Assembly: GCF_041381155.1 (NCBI RefSeq)
Contig: NC_091142.1
Coordinates: 29,819,528-29,883,527 of the forward strand
DNA: 64,000 bases
Direction: 5' to 3'
Source: Argopecten irradians
Taxonomy: Eukaryota
Shown here: piece by piece, positions 8,690 to 40,000 of the stretch
Layout: each line of letters starts with the position of its first letter
Numbering within the stretch: the stretch's first letter is position 1
The notes under the pieces: model-generated
Told to the model about the DNA's origin: nothing
Databases searched by the model: none
What the model saw: only the letters and a program-made list of their open reading frames with translations
Translations under genes and position numbers: made by a program

Positions 8690-9850
8690 AAGAAATATTG
8701 CACAAACCTTCCATGGCCAAAGGTCAATCAAAATTGTAAATTATATGGTCTCTGCCCTCTAGGGGCCTGAGAGGTGGGGCCAAAAGGGGTCAAATAGACT
8801 ATAGATTAAAAAATCTTCTAAAATTCTCGAAATGGTAGAATCAAAAACCTTTCATAGATGTAACTGTTTTAAGGTCCTTTACAAAATTATATGACCCTAG
8901 GGTCTCCCGTTTCCTCCTTGGGAGAGGATCAAGTTTACTATAGCTTCATATACGGAAAACACATTTTTGAGCATTATTTGGGCATTTGTCATAGGAAATA
9001 AGTCAAATGTTGTCAGAATTATCAGTATGAGATGGCCATTGAATCTTATTATCAAATATTCCATGACTGACCCCCAGGGGCCAGAGGGGTGGGGCCAAAG
9101 GGGTCAAATAGGTGAAAACTTCAAAAAAATTCTTCTGAAATTCGCGAAATTGTAGAATCAAATACTCTTCATAGATGGAAAGGTCCAAATGGCTTTTACA
9201 GAAAATGTAAATTATATGACCCTGTGGTCTCACATTTTCCCCGGGGGATGCGGTCAATTTTACTATAGTTTATATATGGAAAACACATTTATGAACATTA
9301 TTTGCCCAATTCTCATAGGAAATAAGTCAAACTTGGTTAGAAATATTAGCCTGAGATAGCATTTTAACATCATAACCATATTGTCCTGGCCAACTTCCAG
9401 GGGCTAGAGGAACGAGGCCAAAAAGTGTCAAAATGGGCTAAAACTTCAATAGGCTTCTTCTAAAATTCTGAAAATGGTAGAATCAAATACTCTTTATAGA
9501 TGGAAGGGTTTTAAGATGTTTTATAAAAATTGTGAATTATATGACCCTGGGGTCTCTTGTTTCCTCTTAGGGAGGGGGTCAAGTTTACTTAAGTTAATAT
9601 AGGAAAAAAGATATTTATGAACATTATTTGCTCAATTTTCATAGGAAATGAGTCAAACTAGATTAGAATTATTTCATGGAAGCAACTACTCTTCATAGAT
9701 TAAAACGTCAAATTTATAAAATCACTGACTAACTTCAAGGCCCAGCATGTAGTGTTTCTATGTCTTTAAATTGTTTCATTATACATTCGAAATAAGGTGA
9801 CTGTAAGGCCCATGGACCTCTTGTTTCATGTTAGAGTCTCAGATGACTTG
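8690..9850. repeat. Satellite-like tandem array with a period of about 325 bp and about 3.5 copies. It lies directly 3' of SINE copy 1.
   Basis: The landmark atgaccct(a/g)gggtctc…gtttcc…tcaagtttact recurs at 8891, 9217 and 9541. The motif ggggccaaa(a)ggggtcaaata recurs at 8775, 9090 and 9415. Confidence 0.8.
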
Positions 9851-12376: not shown

Positions 12377-15300
12377 ATGGAAACGCATGATCCTCCTGGT
12401 TTAACTGATGAGTCTGCCAAGTCAGATGTGGATATGGATCTAAAGCTGGATGAAGTAGATGGGTCACCTGTATCACACATGACAGATGAGGTATTGCAAC
12501 ATGTAAGCACTGTGACAGACCAATCACAATTGATAACAGAGAAGGGTGATGCTCCACCTGAACAGTTGTCGGTAGCAACGATACATCATCCAGACGAAAG
12601 TAATGAAGAAAATAGTAATGCGTCAAAACTAAATGAAGGCATTTTGATATCTGAAACAAGAAGTTTAGTAGAGAGTGAGGATAGTGAGAGAGTCCTTGTC
12701 ATTGACATTAATGACACCAATCTGTCAGTAGATGATGCAGAGAAGATAGAAAACGATGATCAAGAAAAGAATGGAATTCAAGAAACTGAAAGTGAGGAAC
12801 AATTTGAAATGATGGATGCTGAAGAACGTATTGAAGAAGATATGGATACCTGTGAAAATGAACAAGTAAAAGATGAGTCGAAGTCCGAACCAATCGTTGA
12901 AGTTGCAAGTAAAGATATTGGTTTGGATTATTTTGAAAGACTTGAAAACAGTTTGCGTGAGTTAGAGAAGCAAATGTCTAATTCTGGCAATTCATCAGAA
13001 TCAACTGACCATTTATCAACGGACAACCAACCTAATACAACAAATGAAAGTCTCTCGGTGCAGAATGGATTACAGAATACTGAGGAACCACCCATTACAG
13101 CTCCGAATTCAGATGAAAACAACTTATCGTCGGAAGTAGTGGACAGTTTAAATTCCAAAGATCTGGGATCCAGAGAGGCCACAGAGACAGGAGAGAATAA
13201 CGTTGAAAATACAACTAGTGTTGTATCTCATGATCTGGAAACGCAGAGTAGTAACATAGATAAAGTGGATAAAAAGCCCAACAACAAACCTGAGAGGAAC
13301 GCTACTGAAATGTGGTCAAATATAGGGATGATGCGTTGTTCAAAATGTTCATTTACAACTGATCAGGAAGCTATGTTGAACTCCCACGAAGTCATTTGCA
13401 GTAAACGTAAAGTTGTGAAAGTTATGAAAGGAGAAATTAATTTCAAATACAAGTCAGATCGCTATGGATGTGAAGCATGTCTTTATACAACAAAGAGTGC
13501 ACGGAACTTCGAGGAGCATATTGCTTTCCACTTGCTAGCGCAACCTTATATATGTTTGAAATGTGTTGCAACTTTTGAAAGCAAGTCTTCAATAGAAGCT
13601 CATGTCAGTAGTCTACATAATGGTGATAAAAAAGTGAAATGTGGCTTACGGGGATCGAAAAAAATCAATCACATAATTGAAACGCTACACAAAGATTCCA
13701 AGTATTCCTTGACGGGAAGATTGCTTGATAAGAAGATTTGGAACATGTCGATGGCATCTTCAGCAAAAGATCAAAATTCAAAAGGAAACTCTGGAAACGG
13801 TCAAAGCACATCTCCTCAGAAGAAACTTGAAAGACCTTCAATTATTCAACAGAAAAACTTTATGAAATCCAGTCCGTCGAAGAAAGATCCACTTGTATTA
13901 GAACCAGTAGACAAGACGGAAAAACCTGCCCCGGAAAAAATCCAAATCCATGGTAGTCCTAAATTGAGCTGTACCGTTACTTCTTCACTTCAACTCTCCA
14001 ATGTTCCTAATTCTACAGTGAACGTTTCCTCATTCATCCTTGTTCCAGTGACGATGGCACCAAAGCCCCCTCCTCCTGCCATCCAACCTGCTAAACCATT
14101 AGTTTCAATTTTAGGAAACTACACCCCGCCTATTAATAGACCTCAACAACCAATGATTGTGATGAACCAACATAATGTTGTACCACAGAAAACCCCACAG
14201 CAACAGATTATTGTTCTTCCGGCGTCTACCAGTACACCATCATCTCCGGTAATTCATCCTCAGAGTATTTTGAAAAGTCTTATTCCAACACCTACGACAG
14301 TGCAACAAAGCCTGGCAGCTCAACAACAAGTTGTTGTTTCTAGTACAATTTGCTCCCAAACTCGGCCATTACCATTGAACTCTGCTGCTAACAGTAGTGC
14401 GACAATACAAAATGTTCAGGCAGGAAAGATGATCACCTCTACCCAAAGCGAAGAATCAAAACAATCGAACGCAAATGAGAAATTGGGCTCAGTCATTGAC
14501 TTGACAGAGGGAATTTCAAAAAAGAGCTGCCGTATTTCCTTTCGCAAGGAAGGATCGTCTTATGTTTGTAAATACTGCAAGGTGAAAAATGAGACGGAAG
14601 ATGGTTTTAGTAGACACATTTGGAGGCATTTTCATGGACTGCCTCCGATTTGTAAAAAGTGTCCAAACAGCTATTCGTCTGGAGACTTTGCAAAGTGTGC
14701 TTTGGTTACTGAAGTCATGAAAAAGTTAGCAATCAGTGAAGTTGAAGATAAAAAATCAACCAATGTCATTGAAGTTGATTCTGATGACGACCCTGCTGAA
14801 GCTCAACAACTTACCAAGGACACTGATGTTCAAATGAAAGAAAATCCAAACAGCGAGGAAGATAGCTGTATGCAAATAAAGATAGCATCGACATATAGTC
14901 TTAGTGAGTCACCAAAACCGACGACAGAGAAGGACACCGATCCAACTGTGTCAGCTGATGAAGCAAAGGAAGAAAGAAATTCACCTCCAACGATGAAAAT
15001 TAAAGACTCTGGAAACATTTTTGAGAAATTACAAGGATCCATTAATGATGTTGTTGACAAAACGTACGATGGTAATGAAATCAGTAAATATAACCCAACC
15101 GTAACACTGAAAAAAAATGAAGAACCTTCTTCCAGCATTTTAAATAGCTGCATATCACCCACAGCTGTGACTGGTTCTAGTAGATCGGCAAGTCCAAAGG
15201 CAGTGATGACTAGCTCTAGAAGATCGGCAAGTCCAAAGGAATTAATGACTAGTTCTAGAAGATCGGCAAGTCCAAAGGAATTAATGACTAGTTCTAGAAG

Positions 15301-18300
15301 ATCGGCAAGTCCAAAGGAATTAATGACTAGTTCTAGAAGATCGGCAAGTCCAATGGAAGTGATGACTGGTTCTAGAAGATCGGCAAGTCCAAAGGAAGTG
15401 ATAACAGCCACACAATTCAACAAAGAAAATACTTCTTCAGAAAATCCAACCAAGGCAACAGCTGTTCAAAATATAACGTCGAAATTTCCTTCCAATGGAA
15501 GTTTCTATGTATGTGGCTTTACTGACTGCCGATTCGCATGCATTACATCTGGGGAATATAGGGAGCACTTGATGTGTTGGCACTCTGATGCTGATGAATA
15601 TAAATGTGCACACTGTGGACATGGTAGTCTGACGGAGGATTGCCATTTGCGACATATGCTAACTCACTCAAAAGCATCTTCATTCATTCTGTACACGTGC
15701 AGTTACCCAGCATGCCTCTACGGAACTAACGTAGTAGATTTATTTCGGGAGCACTGGAACAAGTTTCACCCAAATACAAGCAAATTCAAATGTCGATCAT
15801 GTCAGATGTTGTTTCCCACCGCCGAGGATCTCATTACTCACATACAGGCAAATATTCTGAAATTTGTTGCATGTCCGCACTGTACAGCAAAAGATAGCAA
15901 CAGGAAGACGATTATTGCACACATTATTGAGGCACATCCAGGAAAACCACGACAAATTACTGTTGCGAGCCAGCTGGTATGTCAAGAGAGAGACCATAAC
16001 GAATTTGCTGTGCCAGCTCCCGGGATTCCGGAAAAACCCGCTGATGTTACGCCATGGCCATCTGTGTATATGGACGACGCAAATGATGAAGATGATGGAT
16101 ATGCAGATTCTGTTGGTCAAAATAACTCTTGTGACGACACAGAGGCAGATGAAGAAGAACCTGTTCATCTTGCTCGACTGTCAGAAATGGCAAAAGCAAA
16201 AGGTTCTCTCACGAAACTTGCTGCAGAAGGTGATATGCGTGATGCAGTTAAAGTCATGGCAATAAACAAATCAAAGCTGAAGTCCCTTAGTGCCGAAATA
16301 ATTCGCTGTTCTGAGTGTTCTTATCTTGCTTCAGGAAGGGGACTACTGCGTAAGCACCAGCTTCTTCACAAAAGGGGTCAATATGAACGGAAACGACGTT
16401 TCTCTTGTCCTTGTTGTCCAGCAGCTATGGACAAACTCAGCAAGTTATCATGTCATATGAATCTACATGAAGGACAGCACAAGGTGAAGGTTTTCTTCTG
16501 TACTTTATGTACATTCAAAACAAACGTGACAGAATTTCTCGGTCATCACATGAGCAAAACCCACAACAGTGAGACCAATAAAGGGATTAACTACATTACT
16601 AAAGTACTGAAAGTATCTGTCTCTGCTTACTTTTGTGACAAATGTCTGTTTGGAACACGTGACCAGGAATTATTCAAGCAACATCAACTTGGGCATAATG
16701 ATGATAATGATGATGCAGCTACAGTAAGAGATCAACCATTTCCTTCAAGTTCTGTTCCAAAACCCCATACAAAGAAACCACAGACAGTTAGAAGTACATT
16801 CGGTGAAAATCTAAATGAAAAAGACTTAGCTTCAGTTAACCCCGGCTCGAAAAAGAGGTTCTGCTGTAAGCTTTGTGGTAAATACTGCTCTCGTCTACCA
16901 GCACTGAAAGGGCACATGGCATCGCATGTAGTTGATAAAGACCTGGATATCCTGGTATATAAATGTCACTACTGTGCGTATTCATCAACATACAAAGCAT
17001 TCGTGAGTAGGCATAGTGAGGAAAAGCACCCCGGGAAAATCATTCGCGTTAAACGCAGGGTTGATATCATTTCTGCGTCTGGGGTTTATCTTCCACCCCA
17101 TGGACAGGAATGGCCAGAGTCTCCAGAGGATATGGAGGAGAATGAGGACATTGAAATTAATGACATGTCAATCTGTTCCCATCATTGTGATATCTGCTCA
17201 TACAGTTGTGATGATGCAGCAGAATTGCTTCGTCATAAGAACTCCCAACATTCTTACCAAGGACCAAAGAAACCATTCGTTGTTCCTTCTGGGAATGTAT
17301 TTAAACCGCCAGTAGATTGTACCGAGTGCGCATTTACCACAATAAGAAGAATAGACCTACTTAGACATATCAAAACACACCCTAATCTGTCTCCATGCTA
17401 TGAAGCGCAACCGAAGGAGCAACGACAGCTATTGAAAGTTGCGATAGGAAAGAAAACATCTTCATCACAGTCTAATGAGTCACATTCACATTCACCGTCC
17501 CCGGACGGGGAAAGTGATTGCACACCCAGTCCTCAGATGGAAGACAGGAAACCATTATTAGCAGAAGATGGTAGTTTGATACAAGAGGAAGTGCAAAAGC
17601 CAAAAGAGAAAACACCGTTATACTTTCTTGGAGGAGATCTGCTTCATTTGAAATTGAGACCTTGTTTTATTCAAGAGGAAACAAATTCTGAATTTACATG
17701 CAAGCTGTGTCAAGACACATTTTCTGGTCGATATGTCCTGCACAAGCACATACTTCAACACATGGATGTTTCTTTTTACAAATGCGCCTACTGCAGTCAT
17801 GGTACATTGGAGTCTCCGTCGATGGTTGTCCACATACAGAAGATACATCGGAAACCCATACAACACGTTCAGATGGACGTCACGGACCTAGAAAGTAAAA
17901 TCAACAAAGCTATTCATAGCATAAAGGAGGAAGAATATTTCACCAGGATGCAAGATAGCGATAGTTGTCATGCCAACACAGATGGTAGAGATTGTGATAG
18001 TGGAGATGATTTTCAGCCCTCTGAAACTAATTACCGCTCCCCATTTAAAGCCAAAGTACCTCCTTTGACCATCAAAACATCGCCATCATATGATATCGTG
18101 AAGAAGAAATCATCTTCAACTGCTAAAAAGTCGACAACAAGCAAACCTAAACCTAGTTTTGTGAGCAAGCATCTGCAAAAATCGCCGGTGTATAATAAAT
18201 CACCTGTAGAAGATAACCCAAACATTCAAAAGATGGGAGATATTTACAAGTGTAAAATCTGCAGTTACACAAGCACATCACGGGCTACAGTGCTGAACCA

Positions 18301-20607
18301 TTTAACGATTCATTCAGGATTCCGAAGGTTTGGATGTCCATTTTGTCCATATCGATCTCACTGGAGACACGACTGCCTAAAACATATCCGAACTCATCAC
18401 CCAGGAAAACATGGTCAGCCAACAACAGATGATCCTCCGGATAATATTGACCCTCAACTGACCCTAAAACCAGATAAACATTCTACGAGCCCGGTAGCAC
18501 TAAAGGTTCCGAAAGTTCCCAAGCCATCACCGCAGGCAAAACAACCTTCAGCGACAGTGAGCCAACCGTCAGCCGAAGACACAGCAAACGCAGATACTCC
18601 AGAATATAGACATGTCTTCAAATGTCTTGTCTGTGATACCAAATTCAAAAGCATTTGGTCGATACAGAAACACTTCTCCAAAGAATGTTCGCAGCCGATG
18701 CTGGGTTGCTCCACCTGCAAGTTTAAAGATTTGGAACCAGGAGCTGTTAAGCTACATATAGAAACAAAACACCCGGGAAGTGAAACATCTAGAATTGTGA
18801 CATTGAAAAGGGAAGCCAAAATGAGGAAGTATACTATCCCAACGTTTAAAAAGCAAGATTCTAAAGAAAGTGTCGGAAGCACTGGTGGGAAAAGTGTGAA
18901 ATCGGATGCAGCTGACCAAGATCATGACTTGCCTCCAAAGGCAAATCTTACGCCAAACAACGAAAGCCAAATTTCAAAATTAAAATCGCCCATGTCGACA
19001 AGTACCAGCCTTTCGATTTTGATAAAACGAATAGGAAACCGCTACATGTGTAGGGAATGCGGATTCAGTAATCCTATAAAGCGAGCTCTTTTGCGACACG
19101 TAAAGAAGCATAGTAATGCCCGTCCGTTCGGGTGTACGTACTGTGAATATCGCTCAAATAATGAATGCAATACGAAAAGACATATGAGAAGACGACATAT
19201 TGGAAAACCGGTGATTGTGCGAAGGTTAGAACCTGCTCAATGGCATTCCCCGATTCCGAGTGTTCGCAAGCCAGCAATAGCTTCACCGACTTCGACACTA
19301 GATTCACCGGCGGATTCTAAAGACGGAGAAGATAATGTTTCAGAAGGAGGAAGCAGTTTGAATTCGGAGAATTCCGCAAAGGGGAAATCTCGTGTAGAAA
19401 TAAGATACTTCTGGAAATGTCTGGAATGTGGCAATAAGAGTAATTCCGTTTCAAACGCCTACAGGCATTTGAAAAAAGGAACTTGTACAAAAACCTTATA
19501 TGGATGTTCCGGATGTAAATTAAAAAACACCGACAAAAAAGCTGTTGAGTTTCACCTGACAGAAAAACATCTCAATAAGAACGTTCAGATTACAATATGT
19601 CCCAACTCCGCCAAGATAAGGAAATACCACATCCCGATCAAAGTAGGAGGTTATGTCCAAATGTCAAAGGAGGAGTTGTCTCAGCTTGATGATGATACCA
19701 GCACCAGTACAACAAGTATTCCAAAGAGTACCACGAAGACCCCCCCTCAGGACACTGAAGACGTTCCTAAACAGAACGGTGAGAAATCCCAGGTTGTCTT
19801 TTGTTCAACTTGCAATTTGAAAGCGTCCAACGCAAAAATATTCCAAAATCACATGGAATCGGAACACGCGGGGATGCTTATGGTTTGCAAACATTGTACA
19901 ATCTTTCGAACAGCCTACGTGTCAAAAATACAGCAGCACACGTGGGATAGTCATCTAGATATGCCGTTGAAATTTTACTTAAGGACCAAAAAAGGCGTGC
20001 CAGATGGTGAGAAAAGACCATCTGAAAGGTACACGTGTGCCAAATGTGATTACATTGGAAAGCGATCATCTGTCCGACAACATCTGTACTGTCATTTTGA
20101 TTATAAGCCATATAAATGTGGATATTGTGGATATCAAACAAAGAAAAACGACGGCGTGAAGCGACATATTGAAAAGCAGCACATTGGTAAACCTATTAAG
20201 GTTTTGTTCAAGAGAAACGCTGCACAAGAACAGGAAATCGAAATGCTATTGGATTCTCATTCGCCTGTAAAACTTTCCATACAGAAGTCACAAGCAGCAA
20301 GACTGGCAAAAGACTTTCCATTTTCATCATCGCCCGTCAAATTAAGCCCAGCTTCAGCTGCAGCACCGTCTCAAACATTCAAGAAGAATTACCCAACAAT
20401 GGCGAACATGAAAAATTCTGCAATTGAAGATTTTATTCCTAGCAAGATGTACAAGGCTTTCTACAATAATAAGGCCGGAAAGTCTGGATTCACTTGTCTT
20501 CTCTGTCCATACAATACGCTCATGCAGAATACAATGATTTCCCATGTTTATCATCATATGAACTCGATCTACAGGTGCCCCTACTGTTCTACACATGGCT
20601 ACCCAAG
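12377..20607 (+). CDS. Giant C2H2 zinc-finger protein, first coding exon (2743 codons plus 2 nt). More than 25 dispersed C2H2 fingers, an acidic N-terminus and a Pro/Gln-rich linker. The ATG has a good Kozak context (tggaATGg) and sits 11 nt after an acceptor (ttttgcag at 12359-12366).
   Basis: The ORF track gives a 2749-aa open frame. It has repeated C-x2-C-x12-H-x3-5-H units, many followed by HPGKP-like linkers. A consensus donor CCAAG|GTATGT sits at 20607/20608. An upstream polypyrimidine-AG implies a 5'UTR intron. Confidence 0.85.
15175..15408 (+). repeat. Six in-frame tandem 39-bp repeats inside the zinc-finger exon, encoding SSRRSASPKELMT six times.
   Basis: Near-identical 39-mers are directly visible (tctagaagatcggcaagtccaaaggaattaatgactagt). 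The antisense ORF 14830..15453, with its LADLLELVINSFG repeats, is the shadow of this. Confidence 0.9.
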
Positions 20608-21034
20608 GTATGTTTTTATTCTATAGTGTCAATTTCTTGCGAATTGCCCGCTCTGTTTGTTTGTCCGCACTGTTCAAAGTGTTCGTAGAAATTACAATAT
20701 GAGAAAGTATAAGTTAGGATTATTAACGAGTACTTCTGATCCGTCGGATACTTTCATACTGAATGAATTGGTAGAGCTATACAATTTAAGTATTATAATT
20801 TCTGGTGGATGTCATTTATATGACCGATATTCACAAGAAATAGAAATAAGCTTTCATTTCTTAGTGAAAAAATGAAAATATATTTGACTTCACAAAAAGT
20901 GGAGTTCGCAATACTAGTGTTCGTGGGTCAGATAGCCTGCAAAAGACTATTTACATTGGGTTTTGTTTTATACAGATGAATATTATTTTGATATTTTAGA
21001 TGTAAAAGTAATCAAAACCTCAATATTACAGGAG

Positions 21035-21778: not shown

Positions 21779-23004
21779 GAAGCATAAAGGAAGAGACGGG
21801 AATCGTCCAATATTCTTGCCACATATGCAGCTACTCAAGCCAGAGTCTGTATCATTATCGTCAGCATCTGGCAGTCCATGGTGGCTTCAAATGGTTAAGC
21901 GCGGGAACCCAGCTTGAATCTCGTCTGAAGTGTGGCTATTGCTCATACCTAGCCGCTGGTGACAAGGACTTCAACGCTCACATGGAGAAACACCTTGCGA
22001 CAAGACCGTTTAGTTGTCCATACTGTGACTTCTCACAGTACACACAGGGGAAAGTGAAAACCCATGTTGCCTATGCTCATCCGGATAAGCCAGTGGAAGT
22101 GTCCAGGGAATCTGGCAGTAGTTGTTTGATCGATGACACTTTACAATTAGATTCTGTGACACTCGTACAGTTGGATCCCAGGGTGAAGCTCGTTGACTTC
22201 TTAACACTTGGTCCGGCAGATTATGAGAAATTGTTGATTGAATCTAACATATCGGTGGTAGACCTGGATAACATTCCTGACGATCGGTTTTCTGTTGTGG
22301 CAAGCAATCTTGGTATAGCCTTGGATGACCAGTATGAAGTGAAGGAAGAGAACAAGAATAATGAGTATGGCGACCAATATGATGATTATGTCGTAAAAAA
22401 AGAACAACTTGAAGAAGATAAGCAAACACAGGAAGAAACAACAGGTGAGGAAATGGATATAAGTACAATGGTAACCTCCACAGACACTGATAATAACGAT
22501 CAAAATATCTCGAGTAATGCTGAGGCCACTGTTGATGATAACCAGGATAATGTGCGAGAAGAATTGGAACAGAATTACCAGCAAGAAACTTCAGAATCCA
22601 ATAAAGTAGATCATGCAAATGATTTAAGTGATGTCAGTGATGTCCCCTTATCACAAGGCGATGAATCGGAAGAGGTAGAAACTGCCGATGAGAGTTTGAT
22701 AGACATGGACTTTGAAAGTGTGAGCCAGGAATCAGCAGACGCCAAGTCACTACCAGACTCGAATGCTAATGAGAACATCACGCTCGAATCGGCATTAGAC
22801 ACAGAGGAGGAAGCTACTGTACAATACGCTTCAGCGATGGAGGAAGACGATGACGAATCAGAGGTACCAGCGAGACAATCGTCAGAGAAAACAGAAGAGG
22901 AAATGGATACCGCGGAAGAAGGAGGTGACCTCGATACCTCGCGAGCTTCTTACAGTGAGCCAGCATGGGAATCCCAAGGCTTTGAAGTTATCGATGAAGT
23001 GTAG
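21779..23004 (+). CDS. Same zinc-finger gene, terminal coding exon. It carries two or three more C2H2 fingers and then a long acidic (D/E/S-rich) tail, with a TAG stop at 23002-23004.
   Basis: The acceptor is tcttacag|GA at 21778. The frame continues from the phase-1 G of exon 2 and matches ORF 21982..23004. The total CDS of 8231+191+1226 = 9648 nt is divisible by 3. Confidence 0.75.
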
Positions 23005-27900: not shown

Positions 27901-28404
27901 TTATATACCCGGTTACGTGTGGGAGATTGTTTCACCCTGAAATTAACGCTCTTCGCGTAAGTAATTAGCGAAAATTCCTCTTCGCGTTAATTTCCACGTA
28001 TACAGTATATTACTGATATCTATCTTGGCCATTGTTTATAGTGTAAGAATTTGTCCATTAAAAACATTCACACAGAATCAGTGGATGAAAATCAAAGAAT
28101 TCCACAGGGTGCTCCGACAACATTTAAAACGAATGGTACACAAGACTAATTCATTATAATATATTTCCATATTCATCCATTTGACTGCTTCCTCTGCAGG
28201 GAATATAAAATGATGGTATACATAAGTCAAAATTTAAAACAAACTCATCTACATGTATTACCAATATATATTTCAATCAATCAAAAAATAATAATTAACA
28301 AACATATTAAACATAATTACCCGTTCCATTACGTGATTAGGTTATGGCACTATAGTTGTTAACAAATCGTGTAATTATATATGATGTAAACCAACTTGTT
28401 TTCG

Positions 28405-28860
28405 TAGCGACTTTTCGCGTCTCTCAATGCTAATAGTTTTCCAAGCCACTTTTCGCGTCTCCCAATGCTAATGGTTTTCCAAGCGACTTTTCGCGTCTCC
28501 CAATGCTAAAAGTTTTCCAAGCGACTTTTTCGCGTCTCTCATGCTTATGGCTTTTCCGAGCGATTTTTCGCGTCTTCCAATGCTGATGGTTTTCCAAGCG
28601 ACTTTTCGCTTCTTCCAATGCTAATGGTTTTCCAAGCGACTTTTCGCGTCTTCCAATGCTAATAGCTTCCCAAGCGAATTTCGCGTCTTCCAATGCAAAT
28701 GGCTTTCCAAGAAACTTTTGCGTCTTCCAATGCCGGTGGCTGTTCTAAGCAACTTTTTGCGTCTTCCAATGCTAATGGCTTTCCAAGCGACTTTTCGCGT
28801 CTTCCAATGCTAATGGATTTCCAGTCGACCTTTTTTGCGATTTCGAGTCATTTGGTTCTA
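28405..28860. repeat. Minisatellite of about 11 copies of a 38-39 bp unit (gttttccaagcgacttttcgcgtcttccaatgctaatg).
   Basis: The tandem copies are visible directly. ORF 28430..28693(-) is a repeat artefact. Confidence 0.85.
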
Positions 28861-30212
28861 CTCAATCTACGTTGAAAGAGTTTTGCGACATTGTGCTTTT
28901 CGCGATCTCTAATCGCCGGCGCATACACGAATTTCAATTGCGCTTGAAAATAAGTCAGTTTACAGTGATTGGTTGATAAGTAGGTCTGCTACATCATTTC
29001 AATAAAATATTCATAAATCTTTGTTCTGTTTAGTTATAAGTAAATATTATTTGACATGTGTATTACAAAATCATTGTTTCTGTTCTTGGCATCATCATCG
29101 TTAATTCAAATCTCGAATAAAAAAAAACCATGATTCTACATAATTTATACATTTTGCTTATAATGACCTTCGCAGAAGCATTCAAAAGCCGCAACCAATT
29201 AAAACAAAGAAAACGTTATGATTAAATCAATCGTCGTATCAACCTTAAAGCAACAAACGCCAAATTGGATGCACATTGTAGAGTGTAAAGATTGTTATAT
29301 TCATTGGATTGTATTTGCAAATACATGTATAAAGCATTATGATCGTTCATTTTCGTTTCAACAAATTATTTTGCGAAAGCCACAAGAATTTAGCCTTGAT
29401 CATGCATGGCCTATTTAAACCATCTCCGAACTATTATCGTCACTGAAATAAACAAGATTATACTGATTGATCAAAAATAAAGATGGGTTGTACAGTACAT
29501 CACTGAAAAATTCTATACCAGCACTTGAAAAGTCTTCATCTTCTCTCCATCACTTGAATTAATTTTGATATTTCACCGGCAAAATGATCAATAACCTACT
29601 AAAGCATAGTCAAATACAAATTCTATAAAATACCAGCAACACATGATATCTCTACAATCTGTAACATTTCCCTCAATTCAATACACGTAAAGATTTATAC
29701 GAAATAGAATCCCTGTAAAACCTAATATTCCCTTTTTAATAATCACGCGTAGATGTTATCAACAGCCTTACAATAGTTACTTTATTGAAGGTATTACATG
29801 TTTATTAAAGCTCAGATGAAGTAGTGATTACTTAAAGCATTCACAATTGAAATCAATCGCAAATGCATTTTGAAAATATGTATCTAAAAGAAATTAATTT
29901 CGGAGATACGAGTTCAGTAAACATTAACTAAACTTGTATTGATGAGAATATTATTTTAAGGAGTACTGGATTTAAAAAAATATCATTTTGTGTTCGTTGG
30001 TTACTTTGACTTATGTGAAATATATTTTGGACGTGACAATGAGAATCACAGAGCAGTATGATTTTGCTGGATTAGATGTGTTGAGGTGAGTTGTTAACCA
30101 TGCGAGTCGACATTCGGAAGTAAATCATTGTCTACTTCTCGATCTGATCCTCCTTTGATCTCTTCCCCCACTCTGTAAATCCTCCCTGTAATTAAAATAA
30201 CAGATTTTAGTT

Positions 30213-30552
30213 AAAGATGCTCCACCGCTGACAAATGTTATTTTTTCACTATCAAAAACAGGAGCAGAAGATTTAGTATTTTTCTTCAATTACAAAAGTT
30301 ACCTACTTTACACTATTACCACCATTAAAAAGTTTGAGCTTCAATTTTACTTTGATTGCATCCCGAAAAAAAATCCGTGACACTATATCCAATTATGAAG
30401 TACTTATTGCGCATGCACCAAAAGGAATATTAATTATTTTATATTTTATATCATTTTTGTGTCAATTAGACATACGTATACACGATTAAACACCAATTAT
30501 TGTTCGAATGATGAGTATCAATTATGCTCTGTTGTCGGTGGAGCATCTTTAA
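30213..30552 (-). mobile_element. TTAA-flanked MITE of about 340 bp with terminal inverted repeat (TIR) AGATGCTCCACCGCTGACAA, copy 1.
   Basis: It has perfect 20-bp TIRs and TTAA on both sides, and an AT-rich non-coding interior. Confidence 0.75.
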
Positions 30553-32640
30553 ATAACAGATTTTAGTTAAATAACATATTTGAATTGTATGACTAACGAT
30601 ATAAGCATGTATCAAAAATCGCAATGCTATTCAGAACATGTGAAGCCTAGCTAATTTGTTGATAAACTATAATATTAAAACAAGAAGAAATAATTCAAGG
30701 GAAGCACTAGGCATGAATGAGATAAATAATCCAACGAATTTCCAAGTTTATTTTAATAATCATCCACATGATAAGTCAACCTGTCTAGAAAGAACCCATG
30801 GGACAAAGAAATGAGTCTTGTAGTCCAGTAAATGTAGGTCAACTTGCATTATAATTGGAAATTTTGACTCCAACAAAGTTGTTCTGTTAAGCAGATGTTT
30901 TTTTACACCCATTTTCCCCCCCCCCCTTCTGTTAAGCAGATGGTTTTTTTACACAGAGATTGTCGCTAAGGTAGGCTTTATTGTATTTAATAAACAGAAT
31001 AATCAAGTATAATGACAGAGGTTATTGTAGAAGACTCTTTTCAACTGGTATTATTGGTACGGCGTATCAAAAGCAATAGACGCTTGTATAAGATTTCTCC
31101 CATTAGCTTTCTCCCCAACACTGTCTTCGGAAACAGAAAGCGGCTATTACCACATTTAACACTTCGTGTGCTGTAGGGGAGTGTGTAGATGTCTGTGTCT
31201 GTGTGTTGTAGTATAGAGAATATCTCGAGTTAACAGAGCAGTGCTACGTCTGTCTACCAGCTCACAATGAAACTCGACCGCGGTCAACCAATACCACAAC
31301 ATTCGTACAGCCGTACAGTCTAAATGACAAATGCGTCAATGGCGGATGAAGCAGACGTTGAAGCGCTCGTATTCTCTTTCTTCTCTGTAATCCAGGATTT
31401 CTTTCATTTTAAACCCCTTTGTAGAATCCAATTCTAACCCCTTACGCATTGAAAAATGTTCTATATGATCAGAATTAATGTAGCTTTCTTCAGTAAGCCC
31501 TATTGTTGCATCCATGTTTGAAATACATGCAGCAATTATTTGTATTCCTGTATTATTCCGAATGGTACTGTGAAGTAGATATTTTTGTGTAAATTCTTCA
31601 TCACATTATATGAATACGTACATTGAATATTGAACCAGGATTCGATAGTGATATTATAGGGAATAAGTGTTAAATCATAGGGAATGGGTGTTAAATCATT
31701 CATCCAACTCCATTCTCATTGATCATGCAAATTCAATAGTGAAATGGAGTTGGTTTAGTGAAATCTTAGAAACTCTACTCTTCTTTGTCTGTATAGAGTA
31801 CAACCGACACATAAGTGTTTTGAGCAGCTGACGGAAGCGGCACTGAATTCGTCTGTCAATGTTCATCCTGCAGAACTTCATTTGACTTAACTGAGTGATT
31901 TTCCGTCTGCACCAAGCCAATTCAAATCAGAAATCAATAACACGCGAATGGAAATCACAGTGAAATGATAGCCATGTTTTCTGCTTCTAATGACAACCTA
32001 TGTCACCAATTTATCAACCAAAATTCATTCATTCCAACTCAAAGCTACATTGTACGTAATATCTAATAGCTGATATTAGTGATGCTTGGTCCTGACGAGA
32101 TTCGGTAAAAAAGTTTCTGTTGTCGAGTTCAGTTACCAATAGACTCTTTTCATACAGCATAAAAAGAAAACTGCACCATATCCGAGGTGCTGCGATTGCA
32201 TAAATAGAATGTGGACATCTATCGGTTTTCTTACACAGAACAGTAAGATGTTTCACATTACCAACATAGTACTTTGACTTTAATTGGAGATTAGATAGAT
32301 GGATTACAAGTACATGTATATGAAAGGGAAAATGAACACCGACATCGAATTTGAGAAGCTGCCTATCCATCAAGAACACCATTATGAATCTGGACAATAT
32401 GACAGAATCTCTTATCTCGATAGTGTTATCGTTCGTGAAGACAAAAAAATATATGAAGCCTCTATTAGAACCAGAAACCATAAGTATACTTAATGGACAC
32501 AAAGAAAAATTAAAAATATACTGCAATTCATGTCAATAGTGTACATACATGTTAGTCACTAAATGTCTAGAGATTGTGAGGCGACATTGGCTAGTTCATA
32601 TTGCAGTACTTGAATGAATATCACGGTTATAGATACTGAA

Positions 32641-32905
32641 AAGGTAATGGATAAGGTCCAAGTACTCGATTAATACCAAATCACTGTCATTGTCAAAATG
32701 AGTCAGTCTGAAGGTCAAAGTACTCGATAAATAAAACATGTATAAATACTTGCATATATAGTAAACCGAAATATTGTTATTGCCACAAAGAGTCAGTCTG
32801 AATGTCAAAGCACTCGATAAATACCACATGTATAAATACTTACGTGGTAAACAGAAACATTGTCATTACCACAAAGAGCTGCTGTGAAGGCCAAAGTACA
32901 CGATG
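32641..32905 (-). repeat. Roughly 88-bp minisatellite made from the 3' half of sulfurtransferase exon 6 plus its donor site. There is one intact copy, two degenerate copies and one partial copy.
   Basis: The direct repeats are ATCG(T/A)GT(A/G)CTTTG(G/A)CCTTCA…TTTGTGG(T/C)AAT(G/A)ACAAT…GTTTAC…AAGTATTTATACATG. ORF 32596..32829(-) reads through the decayed copies (…ALTFRLTLCGNNNISVYY…). Confidence 0.8.
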
Positions 32906-32968
32906 ACATGCCACTGTTACAATAACAGGCTATGGGTTTAGACAGGTCTACGCCAGCCGTGCTAAATT
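32844..32968 (-). CDS. Sulfurtransferase exon 6, the catalytic-loop exon: EFSTAGVDLSKPIACYCNSGMSSCTLAFTAALCGNDNVSVYH. The catalytic Cys is followed by N-S-G, which is MPST-like (CGSGVTA) rather than TST-like (CRKGVTA).
   Basis: Compare human [36 protein letters not shown]. The acceptor is gtctgcag|AATT and the donor is CAC|GTAAGT. A final exon of roughly 35 aa was not located. Confidence 0.8.
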
Positions 32969-33479: not shown

Positions 33480-33578
33480 CTTTTTTAAGACCGTCTAAAT
33501 CTTTCAGTGTCCCATTTTGAGTATTAAGTAAGGCAGACATCGGTAGATTCTTTGCTCCTTTTATGTGCCCAGCGCTTT
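33480..33578 (-). CDS. Sulfurtransferase exon 5: ESAGHIKGAKNLPMSALLNTQNGTLKDLDGLKK.
   Basis: Compare human [38 protein letters not shown]. The acceptor is tttgcag|AAAGC and the donor is AAAAAAG|GTATTC. Confidence 0.8.
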
Positions 33579-34811: not shown

Positions 34812-34938
34812 CTGGCCCGGAGTATTTAGAGGACGGTCTACTGTCACACACTTGACGGTCTGATGATGTCAAATTATTGACCATCGTGTCAAAGGTCAGT
34901 CGTATATTATCATCAGATTTACAGGTGAAGTCTCCTTT
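34812..34938 (-). CDS. Sulfurtransferase exon 4: KGDFTCKSDDNIRLTFDTMVNNLTSSDRQVCDSRPSSKYSGP(G).
   Basis: The acceptor is ttttcag|AAAGG and the donor is CCAG|GTATGT. Confidence 0.7.
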
Positions 34939-35843: not shown

Positions 35844-35939
35844 CTTCGGGGTAGGTATTTCAGTAGATACAGGGTAGCCTGAAGACTTCCATTTCTGCCA
35901 ACCACCGTTCAGGATGGACACGTCTTTATGGCCGAAAAG
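35844..35939 (-). CDS. Sulfurtransferase exon 3: LFGHKDVSILNGGWQKWKSSGYPVSTEIPTPK.
   Basis: The acceptor is ttttcag|CTT and the donor is CCGAAG|GTAGGT. Compare human [27 protein letters not shown]. Confidence 0.8.
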
Positions 35940-36197: not shown

Positions 36198-36399
36198 CTT
36201 AAATGTCCACCAAGCACGACCCGAGAGGAAGAATCCACATGCGTCCGAGTCGCTGTATATGATGACGTGAGTGTCACTGTCCACTCCAGCAGCTCTGACG
36301 CTTTCCTGAAAGGCTTCCACATCCGGGATGTTACGGGGAAACATGTCCGTGTGTTTCCCTTCCATTACACTGAGGTATGACGCCCCGGGAACATGTTCC
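36198..36399 (-). CDS. Sulfurtransferase exon 2: TEHVPGASYLSVMEGKHTDMFPRNIPDVEAFQESVRAAGVDSDTHVIIYSDSDACGFFLSGRAWWTFK.
   Basis: This is the rhodanese domain-1 signature. Compare human ERHVPGASFFDIEE…[26 protein letters not shown]. It overlaps ORF 36159..36410(-). Confidence 0.85.
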
Positions 36400-36881: not shown

Positions 36882-37009
36882 GTGTTGTAGTGTTCTTTCA
36901 TGTCTTTACTGCTTGACCAGGAAACGTCCAAGATGACCACCTTGTCCAGGTCTCCCTTGGTGATTCTTTCATTCAACCAGTCCACGTTTACTAGGTAAGA
37001 TTGGCTCAT
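36882..37009 (-). CDS. Tandem-rhodanese sulfurtransferase (3-mercaptopyruvate / thiosulfate sulfurtransferase family), exon 1: MSQSYLVNVDWLNERITKGDLDKVVILDVSWSSSKDMKEHYN….
   Basis: The start ATG is the reverse complement of 37007-37009, and the donor is ACAC|GTAAGT. The peptide is collinear with the human TST N-terminus (…[20 protein letters not shown]). Confidence 0.75.
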
Positions 37010-40000
37010 TGTGACTACTATAAAATGCTGTGAAATATCGAAAATGGAAAATCAAATTTTTCATTTATATTTTCCAATTATCGTGACATGAATAGGTGAC
37101 AGATACTGTGTAAGACCTTTATTTTACGCTTCCCACTGCACATGCTCCATGTGCATGGAATGTGTTGCGTGGGTGAATGTCTATATGTCACGAGAGACTG
37201 TGACACATACACGTTTTGTTTCTTTGTAATAGTGGAACTCTCTTTTTTTATTTTAGAGTGCTTTCTCACCGAAGCACCATGCCATGCCGCCGACGACAAC
37301 GAAAAAGATCAAACCGTAATATAATAAAGTCTCGTATCGAAAAAAAGGAGTTCATCGGATCTTTAGATTTACTAATTTTAACAGGCTTGTCACAGTAGCA
37401 ATAAGAAAATAAAAGTACCTGACCCAACAGTTACACTCACGTCCTTTCTCGTACTAAATTCCTTATAAGTGACTCTCCTAAATAATCCTTTTATATCTGT
37501 AATATTCATGACTGAAAAGGGCGACTAAATTAGGGATATTAATTTTCTCTTCTTACTAACTTCTCTCCTGACTGGCCTCGTATCTGTGTAAGGAACGCTT
37601 AGCGTTCACATTTAAATCAAAGATGTGAAACGACTGTTTTGCATATTTTAAGATTAAATGACCAATGTCTTTGGCGCTTATCTAAGCCTCCCGCGCTCAG
37701 CATTCAGGGAGTGAGACGACTGGTTCACCAGTTGTTAGTATAATGTGACCGGGTGGATTATGTTGCATGGGTCTTCGGCAGCATGAGTGATACAGCACAA
37801 TGAAAGGGCAAGAAGGGCAAAGAGTTTCACTATACAAGAAGACACAACACGAATATACTGCAGTCTCCAATAGCACGCACGTCATACACGCGTCACAACG
37901 CATATATGAGAGGCCGTACTTACATAATCTTGACTGGTAATAAGATGGATTAATCAATAAAACAAACAAACACGGCGTACAGACATGCACAATTTTCGAC
38001 ATCATCTTCAATATCATAAGTAGATATATGCTGATTACTACAGTGACAGTGTGTAGCTGTTGATGCAGTGCAACCAAAAACAACCATTTAAAAAAGTTTT
38101 TTTGCACCAAAGAACATTGAAGGTCTGTGAGGCATTATTAACTAGGCATAATACCACCACATTTGAAAACAGTGATATCTTCAACACAAGCCGGGAGTGC
38201 TGTTTTATAGTGTATTAAAATTCATTTTCAACAAAAAAAAAAAAAAAAAACATAAGCACACACTGCTTCGAAAAGCTTGATGTGTCGAAGACTGAAAATA
38301 TTTATTTTTGATTAAAATTCTGGCTGCTAACTTAACGGTAAATGAATGTGTAATTGTGTTACTCGCATATGTAGTATAACCTGTCATTTTCTTTCATAGA
38401 AGTCGTCCCGATAACCAAATCTTGGCAGTATACCAATGAAAATGATTTTAGTGCAATGTCATATCTGATCTAGTGTCCTGAAGGCCAAGCTTTTTTGCGG
38501 TTATGCAAATTTTGTAATGAAATTGAGGATGAAACCCACTTCATTTTTAGTGTTCCGTTAACTCAACAGTGAGAACAATTTCTTTAATAGTCATAAAGAT
38601 GTAACATCTAAAAGATTTTGAAAATTTGATACCACTCTAGTGTTTTAACAGAAATATATACATATATATGTTGATTAAAACTTCTACAGGATTTAGGACT
38701 CTTTGTTAGAAAGTCATTTGAACTGAGGAAAGCTGGCTTGATAAATGTTTTTAAAGTTGTTGTTTTGATCTACTGTGTGTTATGTATATGTATGTTTTGC
38801 TATCGATTCCTTTCGTATGGATATAAGGAGCAATAAAGTTGAATTGAATTGAATTAATACAGGAAACTGAAATAAAGTATGCCTATTTTGTTCAATTTGT
38901 GTTCAAAGGGGAATAAATCGTTCAACGTTGCCTTGAGGAATGGTCTCTAGGGGACGTAACTCGGTGATAGACGATGCAACGAGTTACAGCGAAAATGCAA
39001 TGATTTTCGTGAGAAATATGACACCAGGGAAGCAGTAGGACCAAGATATATAATACGTTATAGACATGGTAATTACCAACACCCGATTGAAGTCGCTCAA
39101 GGTTGTCAATTTGCCTGCAACTGCAAGAATAAAATATAGGCCTAGTCTCTACCTGGCTTCGGTTTGTTAGACGATTTCGTCTCTGTCTCGTTGCTAGCTA
39201 TACTGTGGGTATTAGTCAAGGAGGCCATGTTAACGTTGCCATCTACCATTAAAGTTGCATTGAGGTTTATATACAGCCTTAATTCAGAAATTGTGATTTG
39301 GTTTAGTAATTAAGATCAAAGCAGAAAGAACATAAATAGCATACCTGTACTGTCAAGTTGGTGTCTCGTCAAAATAACGTTCCAAGGGAGGCAACCACGC
39401 GATAACTCGGGTAACAGCTGATAACAAACAATCGATGACACTATATAATGTATACATGTAAATCAGTTACTTTGTGTATGAAGACAAGATAAACATATAC
39501 GCGTACGTATACTTACATGATATAATTCACCGGAAACTATATAGTCACTGCCCAAATCAAGTTCCTTTGTGGGCGTTTTTATAACATAAATTACATCATG
39601 AATGTGTAAACAAATACCAGTATAGTAGTGATTTACATCCCTTTTGATAACCTTATTATCGTGATCGTCTGGGGTTTTACCCATTTAGCTCAGCTACCTA
39701 CAATACACTCTGTATGTTAACATATACATGATGTTGATGTGTTCTCTGACACTCTTTTATAATGGTTACAAAATTTAAAAAAAATGTATGAAAACCGATG
39801 CTGTCCATTGGTGAAACGCCTTTATAGGGTATCGCTTATAAATTCTTGCAAAAGAATAAACACTTGGTTTAATTGCTATTTTGTAAAAGGACCTGAAGTT
39901 TACTAAATAAATCCCCGCGTCCATACATCCTCGCAACTCGCTTGCCAAGGGTACAGTAGTAGAGTATGGGATTGAATACCCTTGGCTAGCGAAGCTGACA

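What the first reader, a model, noticed from the sequence alone, without database searches (positions are those of the whole stretch)
32641..32968. Catalytic exon of the sulfurtransferase gene seeds an intronic minisatellite
The 3' half of exon 6 (…CTLAFTAALCGNDNVSVYH) plus its GTAAGT donor is repeated head-to-tail about 3.5 times immediately downstream in the intron. Donor strength decays progressively across copies (CAC|GTAAGT, then TAT|ATATGC, then lost). The decayed copies still carry the exon text and could act as cryptic or alternative 3' exon ends or as decoy splice sites. I also could not find the expected last exon (…DGSWxEW…), so the gene's 3' structure may be unusual.
Basis: seen in the sequence. 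Interest (0 to 1): 0.6.

Follow-up and report, generated by a model that had tools for sequence, protein, structure and literature searches.

The report
Decayed exon-boundary minisatellite in scallop sulfurtransferase gene
The end of one exon of a bay-scallop sulfurtransferase gene, together with its splice signal, was copied head-to-tail into the next intron long ago; in this species the copies are now decayed, unused leftovers of a repeat type already known from human genes.

Summary
The window is Argopecten irradians DNA. The gene is a seven-coding-exon, two-domain rhodanese ("thiosulfate sulfurtransferase-like") on the minus strand. The repeat is real (z≈22 against shuffles). The last 60 nt of exon 6 plus 26 nt of intron form an 86-nt unit. 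It is followed by one full copy (90 nt), one truncated copy (58 nt) and a ~30-nt fragment (window 32640-32903). The copies have lost the GT donor, and read-through stops after 12 codons. Two independent transcript contigs join exon 6's own donor directly to a normal last exon (30132-30185, GGFTEWGKRSKEDQIEK*). The array is not a recent slip. Mizuhopecten yessoensis has 10 copies with the same breakpoints and intact CAC|GTAAGT donors, and Pecten and Ylistrum keep relics. This is the class known from human F7, IFI6, CBS, LMNB2 and PDGF: a minisatellite whose first unit spans an exon-intron boundary, with only the first donor used. The same gene has independent boundary-spanning arrays in an ark clam (same junction, ~23 copies), an abalone and a venerid clam. 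Verdict: a real, neutral, decaying member of a known kind. The recurrence across molluscs is the only mildly interesting part.

The parts
39345..39603 (-). Non-coding 5' exons of the TST-like gene (39517-39603 seen only in transcript L005; 39345-39417/39423 seen in both transcripts)
   Evidence: blastn of transcript contigs L001 and L005 against the window
36882..37009 (-). Coding exon 1 (ATG at 37009; the exon extends about 20 nt further 5' as UTR)
36198..36399 (-). Coding exon 2
35844..35939 (-). Coding exon 3
34812..34938 (-). Coding exon 4
33480..33578 (-). Coding exon 5
32844..32968 (-). Coding exon 6. It encodes the active-site loop C234-NSGMSS and ends ...NDNVSVYH with donor CAC|GTAAGT, the only donor used
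32818..32903 (-). Repeat unit c0 (master copy): the last 60 nt of exon 6 (from the Ser240 codon TCG) plus the first 26 nt of intron 6
   Evidence: E=1e-22
32728..32817 (-). Repeat copy c1, 90 nt, 82% identical to c0. The donor is degraded to TATATAT|GCAAGT, and the copy contains the in-frame TGA that ends any read-through
   Evidence: (E=5e-15)
32670..32727 (-). Repeat copy c2, 58 nt, truncated before the donor. It is 86% identical to c1 and 77% to c0
   Evidence: (E=1e-7)
32640..32669 (-). Repeat fragment c3 (TCGAGTACTTGGACCTTATCC...); only the first ~23 nt are recognisable
   Evidence: (family D2)
30186..32843 (-). Intron 6 (2658 nt). Outside the array and the first ~27 nt it cannot be aligned with other scallop genera
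29953..30185 (-). Terminal exon 7: CDS 30132-30185 (GGFTEWGKRSKEDQIEK, stop TAG at 30132-30134) plus 3' UTR reaching at least 29953

Best explanation
This is a degenerate minisatellite whose first unit spans the exon 6/intron 6 boundary of a bay-scallop two-domain rhodanese (TST-like) gene. An 86/87-bp segment (60 nt of exon plus 26-27 nt of intron, donor included) was tandemly duplicated before the living scallop subfamilies split. Because the spliceosome uses the first, authentic donor, every downstream copy is removed with the intron, so the mRNA is unchanged and the duplication is tolerated. The array has since evolved like any minisatellite, by unequal exchange and slippage plus point decay. 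It expanded and stayed homogeneous in Mizuhopecten (10 copies, donors intact). In Argopecten it shrank and decayed to about 2.1 extra copies with dead donors, and only relics remain in Pecten and Ylistrum. In A. irradians today it has no detectable role. Shown: the repeat, its boundaries, donor loss, canonical splicing in two transcripts, and presence in the other scallops. Inferred: single origin (from shared breakpoints), turnover, and neutrality.
For: The repeat is real and not dispersed. The gene model matches XP_069136054-type protein P0001 at 100%. Two transcript contigs use the first donor and a normal exon 7. The A. irradians copies lack usable GT donors and carry an early in-frame stop. 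The breakpoint (...TTTA(C)|TCG...) follows a ~27-nt alignable intron head in A. irradians, M. yessoensis and Y. balloti; in P. maximus the sequence after the intron head is not recognisable and the relics lie ~530-790 nt into the intron. M. yessoensis has 9.2 TRF copies at 91% identity, with 8 further CAC/AAC|GTAAGT donors. The Y. balloti relic sits at the homologous place (z=3.7; E=2e-9 against Mizuhopecten units). P. maximus has three weak hits spaced 83-91 nt apart. The rest of intron 6 is unalignable between genera, yet c1 and c2 remain 82% and 77% identical to their own exon. c1 and c2 share 7 derived states absent from every exon copy, which indicates a two-step history. Precedent: the human F7 IVS7 minisatellite and its analogues, where only the most upstream donor is used (PMC1557585). 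The same rule holds in the ark clam, where 8 transcript-derived proteins join exon 6 to exon 7 despite about 23 intact pseudo-donors.
Against: The transcript evidence is two assembled contigs, not quantitative junction counts, so rare use of c1's GC-type site (TAT|GCAAGT) or intron retention cannot be excluded. Persistence of the architecture since the scallop crown ancestor, and over-representation of boundary-spanning arrays in this gene across molluscs (crude model), could hint at something more than neutrality. Evidence that the A. irradians copies were renewed within the Argopecten lineage is thin (2 of 4 diagnostic sites). Copy-number polymorphism was not testable.
Confidence: 0.77

Rival explanations
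1. The intronic copies act as alternative or cryptic 3' ends of exon 6, or as decoy donors that regulate splicing of the catalytic exon.
For: The copies keep exon-like text. In M. yessoensis the first four downstream donors are perfect, in frame and open, and would insert 28-115 aa.
Against: In A. irradians there is no GT donor at 7/9 or better in the copies, and there is an in-frame stop after 12 codons. Two transcripts use the first donor only. No database protein contains array peptide. In Tegillarca, 8 of 8 transcript-derived proteins ignore about 23 intact pseudo-donors. Relics in Pecten and Ylistrum show no conservation.
Confidence: 0.05
2. The array is a recent replication-slippage expansion private to A. 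irradians.
For: It is a small array, and TRF-negative decay could be mistaken for an imperfect recent event.
Against: The copies are already 14-23% diverged. The same unit and breakpoints occur in M. yessoensis, with relics in Y. balloti and P. maximus.
Confidence: 0.03
3. The array is maintained by selection as a cluster of U1 snRNP binding sites or exon-like enhancers. It could, for example, strengthen definition of exon 6 or suppress premature cleavage and polyadenylation in the last intron.
For: The architecture has persisted since the scallop crown ancestor while the rest of the intron is saturated. An independent array sits at the same junction in Tegillarca. Boundary-spanning arrays occur in 4 of 6 mollusc lineages for this gene, against about 0.5-0.65 expected (plus hand arithmetic).
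Against: The donors are lost in A. irradians, and the arrays are reduced to relics in Pecten and Ylistrum. Mactra and Crassostrea have no array at all. Homogeneous arrays with intact donors are simply young, so their intact donors are not evidence of constraint.
Confidence: 0.07
4. The array is an assembly artefact, or a fragment of a dispersed or transposable repeat that captured exon sequence.
For: Tandem repeats are prone to mis-assembly. Copy number in any one assembly may be inexact.
Against: The copies differ by many substitutions and indels, which mis-assembly does not create. The structure recurs in four independent scallop assemblies. There is no other copy of the unit in 64 kb, and the unit boundaries are those of a simple tandem duplication.
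Confidence: 0.02

Closest known systems
Human F7 intron 7 37-bp VNTR minisatellite (Borensztajn et al. 2006, PLoS Genet, PMC1557585)
   Same: It is a tandem array whose first monomer spans the exon-intron boundary, so the donor is reiterated in the intron. Only the most upstream donor is used, and the pseudo-sites stay silent.
   Different: The F7 unit holds only 4 nt of exon and 33 nt of intron, and its 5-9 copies are identical and polymorphic. The scallop unit holds 60 nt of coding sequence. In A. irradians it is degenerate, with 2.1 extra copies and dead donors. Polymorphism is untested.
Other human boundary-spanning minisatellites listed in PMC1557585: IFI6 (6-16) intron 2, CBS intron 13, LMNB2 (100-bp unit), PDGF intron 4 (81-bp unit)
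   Same: The architecture is the same. The LMNB2 and PDGF units are of similar length (81-100 bp), and only the authentic donor is used there, as seen here for A. irradians and Tegillarca.
   Different: [quoted passage not shown] There is no evidence for that here. These human arrays were not reported there as shared across deeply diverged genera.
Intron gain or intron sliding by tandem genomic duplication (e.g. PMC3265369, PMC4974935, PMC2891723)
   Same: A tandem duplication involving splice-site sequence is rendered harmless by splicing.
   Different: Those events duplicate exonic AGGT to create a new intron. Here an existing donor is duplicated, and no new intron or shifted boundary results; the exon 6 end is identical in all four scallops.
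Orthologous arrays found here: M. yessoensis L002 13953-14749; Tegillarca granosa L006 13307-16126+; Haliotis cracherodii L008 10195-11141; Ruditapes philippinarum L009 3709-4472
   Same: They are in the same gene and are the same kind of boundary-spanning array. Mizuhopecten shares the breakpoints, so it is the same ancestral event.
   Different: Tegillarca: same junction but a 123/124-nt unit (87 nt exon + 36 nt intron), so an independent origin. Haliotis: exon 3 donor, 51-nt unit. Ruditapes: exon 3 acceptor, 40-nt unit.

Membership tests
Minisatellite whose first monomer spans an exon-intron boundary (F7 IVS7 type) | Head-to-tail tandem copies of a 10-100+ bp unit | tested here: met
   Start-to-start spacing of 86 and 90 nt, three profile hits in register, z=21.6
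Minisatellite whose first monomer spans an exon-intron boundary (F7 IVS7 type) | The first monomer contains the exon end and the start of the intron | tested here: met
   c0 is 60 nt of exon 6 plus 26 nt of intron 6, with the exon end fixed by two transcripts
Minisatellite whose first monomer spans an exon-intron boundary (F7 IVS7 type) | The donor sequence is reiterated in the intron as pseudo-sites | tested here: not met
   In A. irradians the donors have decayed (c1 TAT|GCAAGT; c2 and c3 have none). The feature is met in the orthologous M. yessoensis array, which has 8 further CAC/AAC|GTAAGT sites. The window therefore holds a degenerate descendant of such an array, not a currently typical one.
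Minisatellite whose first monomer spans an exon-intron boundary (F7 IVS7 type) | Only the most upstream (authentic) donor is used | tested here: met
   L001 and L005 junctions; also 8 of 8 Tegillarca transcript-derived proteins. This is qualitative only.
Minisatellite whose first monomer spans an exon-intron boundary (F7 IVS7 type) | Copy number is polymorphic within the species (VNTR) | not testable with these tools
   Only one A. irradians genomic sequence was available
Two-domain rhodanese / thiosulfate-3-mercaptopyruvate sulfurtransferase family | Two tandem rhodanese domains | tested here: met
   Pfam PF00581, 2 stretches, E=4.6e-26; full-length alignment to bovine and human TST and MPST structures
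Two-domain rhodanese / thiosulfate-3-mercaptopyruvate sulfurtransferase family | Catalytic cysteine in the C-terminal domain's active-site loop | tested here: met
   Cys234 (yCNSGMSS) aligns with the Cys of tCRKGVTA in 8agf and 1rhd and is invariant in five scallop sequences
Two-domain rhodanese / thiosulfate-3-mercaptopyruvate sulfurtransferase family | Loop motif that separates TST (CRKGVTA) from MST (CG[ST]GVTA); motifs recalled from general knowledge | tested here: inconclusive
   The loop is CNSGMSS (CFSGMSS in the ark clam), which matches neither motif. The name 'TST-like' is an annotation, and substrate preference is unknown

The most novel reading that the evidence does not exclude
Exon-anchored minisatellites may renew themselves. 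One unit is a selectively maintained exon end, so it could act as a permanent master copy that keeps re-seeding the array by unequal exchange or conversion. That would make boundary-spanning arrays far longer-lived than ordinary intronic minisatellites, and so over-represented. It would explain why the scallop array's architecture has outlasted saturation of the rest of the intron. It would also explain why the same gene carries independent boundary-spanning arrays in 4 of 6 mollusc lineages (about 0.5-0.65 expected from random placement; P about 0.004, or about 0.02 after dropping the scallop case that prompted the search). A weaker alternative is that the exon 6 donor of this gene is a mutational hotspot.
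Probability: 0.25. Interest if true: 0.5.

Novelty: new member of a known kind. Interest (0 to 1): 0.33.

Why it matters
For A. irradians itself it matters little. The array is a spliced-out relic, and the gene is ordinary.

There are three practical points:
- Such arrays mislead gene prediction. The GenBank model of the Tegillarca orthologue runs into the array instead of splicing to the last exon.
- Motif expectations taken from vertebrates (DGSWxEW) fail in molluscs (GGFxEW).
- M. yessoensis (10 units) and Tegillarca (~23 units) are natural test cases, outside mammals, for the rule that the most upstream of several identical donors is chosen.

If the over-representation and longevity hold up genome-wide, they would indicate that exon-anchored repeats follow different dynamics from ordinary intronic minisatellites.

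Tried and rejected
- **TRF on the region** did not report the array because it is too decayed. The repeat finder, shuffle-tested alignment and nhmmer were needed.
It was resolved by fetching the annotated protein.
- **Pecten maximus isoform X1** (19 aa longer) looked like a possible product of an alternative donor. It differs only at the N-terminus.
- **A protein search with the hypothetical Mizuhopecten read-through or alternative-donor peptide** found only the four canonical orthologues. This is weak evidence for Mizuhopecten, because the collection holds no transcript-derived copy of that species' protein.
- **Each species' own exon unit as probe** gave no significant relic in Ylistrum (z=0.4) and a borderline one in Pecten (z=3.5). 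Relics became detectable only with the Mizuhopecten intronic consensus.
- **Open reading frame through the Mizuhopecten array** was considered as evidence of coding potential and rejected. With an 87-nt unit, one open unit makes all units open, and only about 9 intron-derived codons need to lack stops.
- **Rfam** found nothing in 29.5-40 kb. There are no plus-strand ORFs above 64 aa over the array. The 165-aa ORF inside intron 6 has no Pfam hit. There is no paralogue in the window.
- **A dated crown-scallop divergence** was sought in PMC11439060, PMC11354973 and PMC13212745 and not found in the text, so only a relative age is given.
- **The automatic exon chaining** dropped some exons. I corrected the expectation by hand, and that correction is arithmetic, not a tool result.

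Full report
**Source and gene.** The window is 35% G+C eukaryotic DNA. Six open frames on the minus strand between 37.0 and 32.8 kb encode a two-domain rhodanese. A search of 5.8 billion proteins returned 'thiosulfate sulfurtransferase-like [Argopecten irradians]' (P0001, 276 aa) at 100% identity. Orthologues followed in Pecten maximus (82%), Mizuhopecten yessoensis (77%) and Ylistrum balloti (74%). The window is therefore bay-scallop genomic DNA. The coding exons are 36882-37009, 36198-36399, 35844-35939, 34812-34938, 33480-33578 and 32844-32968, all with AG acceptors and GT donors.

**The observation.** On the minus strand, exon 6 ends ...TCGTGTACTTTGGCCTTCACAGCAGCTCTTTGTGGTAATGACAATGTTTCTGTTTACCAC|GTAAGTATTTATACATGTGGTATTTA. 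That 86-nt stretch (c0, 32818-32903) is followed by c1 (90 nt, 32728-32817), c2 (58 nt, 32670-32727) and a fragment c3 (32640-32669). The similarity is far beyond chance, with a local score of 74 against 21.1±2.5 in 200 dinucleotide shuffles (z=21.6). A profile of the unit hits at E=1e-22, 5e-15 and 1e-7 and nowhere else in the window. Identities are 82% for c0-c1, 77% for c0-c2 and 86% for c1-c2. c1 and c2 share seven derived states absent from every exon copy. So an early intronic copy diverged first and was duplicated again later. The donor CAC|GTAAGT becomes TATATAT|GCAAGT in c1, through a 4-nt insertion plus GT>GC, and is deleted from c2 and c3. TRF misses the array because of its decay.

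**The 'missing' last exon.** The annotated protein has 17 residues beyond exon 6, GGFTEWGKRSKEDQIEK. They are encoded at 30185-30135, with the stop at 30132-30134, behind a ttaattacag acceptor. Intron 6 is 2658 nt. The 3' structure is conventional.

**Transcript evidence.** P0001 is encoded without interruption on a 1101-nt Logan contig from SRR19746223 (L001). A 276-aa allele is encoded on a 1171-nt contig from SRR19746228 (L005). Both can only be assembled transcripts. Both map to the window as the seven coding exons plus one or two 5' non-coding exons, and both read ...GTTTACCAC|GGAGGATTTACAGAG across the exon 6/7 junction. The authentic donor is therefore used. No GT site in the copies matches the U1-complementary 9-mer at 7/9 or better; the next such site is 295 nt into the intron. 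Read-through terminates after 12 codons. A search with array-derived peptide found no protein that contains it.

**Orthologous loci.** In M. yessoensis (L002), exon 6 is followed by 9.2 TRF copies of an 86/87-nt unit at 91% identity. Donors sit at +84, +171, +258, +345, +431, +517, +603 and +689 nt; all are CAC|GTAAGT except one AAC|GTAAGT. Two further decayed copies follow. In three of the four scallops (A. irradians, M. yessoensis, Y. balloti) the intron starts with an alignable ~27-nt head, and the sequence then re-enters the exon text at the same TCG. In P. maximus the sequence after the head is not recognisable. Shared breakpoints point to one ancestral duplication. Y. balloti keeps one decayed copy at exactly that place (z=3.7; 78% over 69 nt, E=2e-9 against Mizuhopecten units). 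P. maximus keeps three weak copies 83-91 nt apart, ~530-790 nt into the intron. According to PMC11354973, Mizuhopecten (Chlamydinae) is sister to Pectininae, where Ylistrum is basal and Argopecten is sister to Amusium+Pecten. The duplication therefore predates that split. Outside the array and the intron head, intron 6 is unalignable between genera. Copies that still resemble their own exon at 77-82% must therefore be much younger than the founding event, which means the array turns over. Direct evidence for renewal within the Argopecten lineage is only suggestive, at 2 of 4 diagnostic sites.

**What it is and how it works.** The literature search found the precedent. Borensztajn et al. [quoted passage not shown] They list IFI6, CBS, LMNB2 (100-bp unit) and PDGF (81-bp unit) as further cases. 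They show that the identical downstream pseudo-sites are functional but silent because the most upstream donor is selected. The scallop array belongs to this class. In A. irradians it is a degenerate descendant, while in M. yessoensis it is a typical member. The mechanism I commit to has three steps:
- a tandem duplication across the donor;
- tolerance of that duplication, because the first donor restores the normal mRNA;
- neutral minisatellite dynamics afterwards (unequal exchange, slippage, decay).

**Unexpected recurrence.** The ark clam Tegillarca granosa (L006) has an independent array at the same junction. Its unit is 123/124 nt (87 nt of exon including the CFSGMSS loop, plus 36 nt of intron), there are about 23 copies at 88-91% identity, and each has CTC|GTAAGT. 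Eight transcript-derived proteins all read ...ASLYL|GGFTEW.... Only the GenBank genome model runs into the array. Haliotis cracherodii (L008) has a 51-nt × 18 array that starts 16 nt inside exon 3 (CGG|GTGAGT in each unit). Ruditapes philippinarum (L009) has a 40-nt × ~19 array that copies the acceptor and first ~14 nt of exon 3. Mactra and Crassostrea have none.

A crude model takes each observed array, places its founding unit at random in the gene, and counts spans of a junction. It expects about 0.5, or about 0.65 after I correct by hand for dropped exons, against 4 observed. That gives P of about 0.002-0.004, or about 0.02 without the scallop case that prompted the search. This is suggestive only. 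It fits either a high generic rate in minisatellite-rich mollusc introns or longer persistence of arrays anchored on a conserved exon.

**Other checks.** There was no Rfam hit, no meaningful plus-strand ORF over the array, no paralogue in the window and no published description.

**Verdict.** The finding is real but ordinary in kind: a decayed boundary-spanning minisatellite with no detectable function in this species. The 'recent slippage' fallback is wrong on age.

Noticed in passing
L006 13268-16320 (Tegillarca granosa, GCA_029721355.1 CM056607.1): An independent ~23-copy, 123/124-nt minisatellite is seeded by the same exon 6/intron 6 junction of the orthologous gene. The GenBank model KAJ8312642.1 (P0026) reads through the donor into the array (...ASLYLVSKIIEDVR...). 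Eight transcript-derived proteins end ...ASLYLGGFTEWSKKADKSMIEN, so the model is probably mis-annotated.
   Followed up: yes
L008 10195-11141 (Haliotis cracherodii): A 51-nt × 18 minisatellite has a first unit made of the last 16 nt of exon 3 plus 35 nt of intron, with a CGG|GTGAGT donor in every unit. The same locus is packed with other intronic minisatellites (27 nt × 203, 34 nt × 71, 28 nt × 9 starting ~10 nt after the exon 6 donor).
   Followed up: partly
L009 3709-4472 (Ruditapes philippinarum): A 40/80-nt × ~19 minisatellite ends inside exon 3. Each unit copies the acceptor ttacag plus the first ~14 nt of the exon, so it is a boundary-spanning array on the acceptor side.
   Followed up: partly
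L002 14870-16190 (Mizuhopecten yessoensis intron 6): A second minisatellite (25 nt × 53, TAAAGGATTATAGGGAAGTAAGACC) directly follows the 86-nt array. A. irradians has a 21-nt × 2.1 repeat at window 31656-31699 with a similar ATAGGGAA(G)TAAG core, but on the opposite strand relative to the gene. There was no significant blastn match between the introns, so any relationship is unproven.
   Followed up: no
window 12377-20626 (+) and 21982-23004 (+): A giant uninterrupted 2749-aa ORF carries many C2H2 zinc fingers (Pfam zf-H2C2_5 and the ZNF462 seventh-finger model), followed by a 340-aa acidic ORF. It is convergent with the TST-like gene. The oyster locus L010 has the same convergent neighbour (a 3030-aa product with a faint zf-H2C2_5 hit), which suggests conserved synteny between scallop and oyster.
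   Followed up: partly
window 15168-15399: An in-frame coding minisatellite (39 nt × 5.9, 93% identity) lies inside the zinc-finger ORF and encodes repeats of SRRSASPKELMTS.
   Followed up: no
window 28398-28823: A 38-nt × 11.2 minisatellite lies about 1.1 kb beyond the 3' end of the TST-like transcript, between the two convergent genes.
   Followed up: no
window 8778-9673: A 325-nt × 2.8 tandem repeat at 75% identity, of unknown nature.
   Followed up: no
window 39345-39603: The two transcript contigs differ at the 5' end. L005 has an extra non-coding exon (39517-39603) upstream of the one shared with L001 (39345-39417/39423). This is either a more complete 5' UTR or alternative first exons.
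   Followed up: no
window 32922-32942 (exon 6, codons 234-240): The active-site loop is CNSGMSS in all scallops, Mactra, Ruditapes, Haliotis and oyster, and CFSGMSS in the ark clam. It matches neither the vertebrate TST nor the MST loop, so the substrate preference of this mollusc clade is not predictable from the name 'TST-like'.
   Followed up: no
L002 13978-14323 (M. yessoensis): The first four downstream pseudo-donors are at multiples of 3 (84, 171, 258 and 345 nt) with no stop codon. Using them would insert 28-115 aa into the catalytic domain rather than truncate it. Later units are 86 nt and shift the frame.
   Followed up: partly
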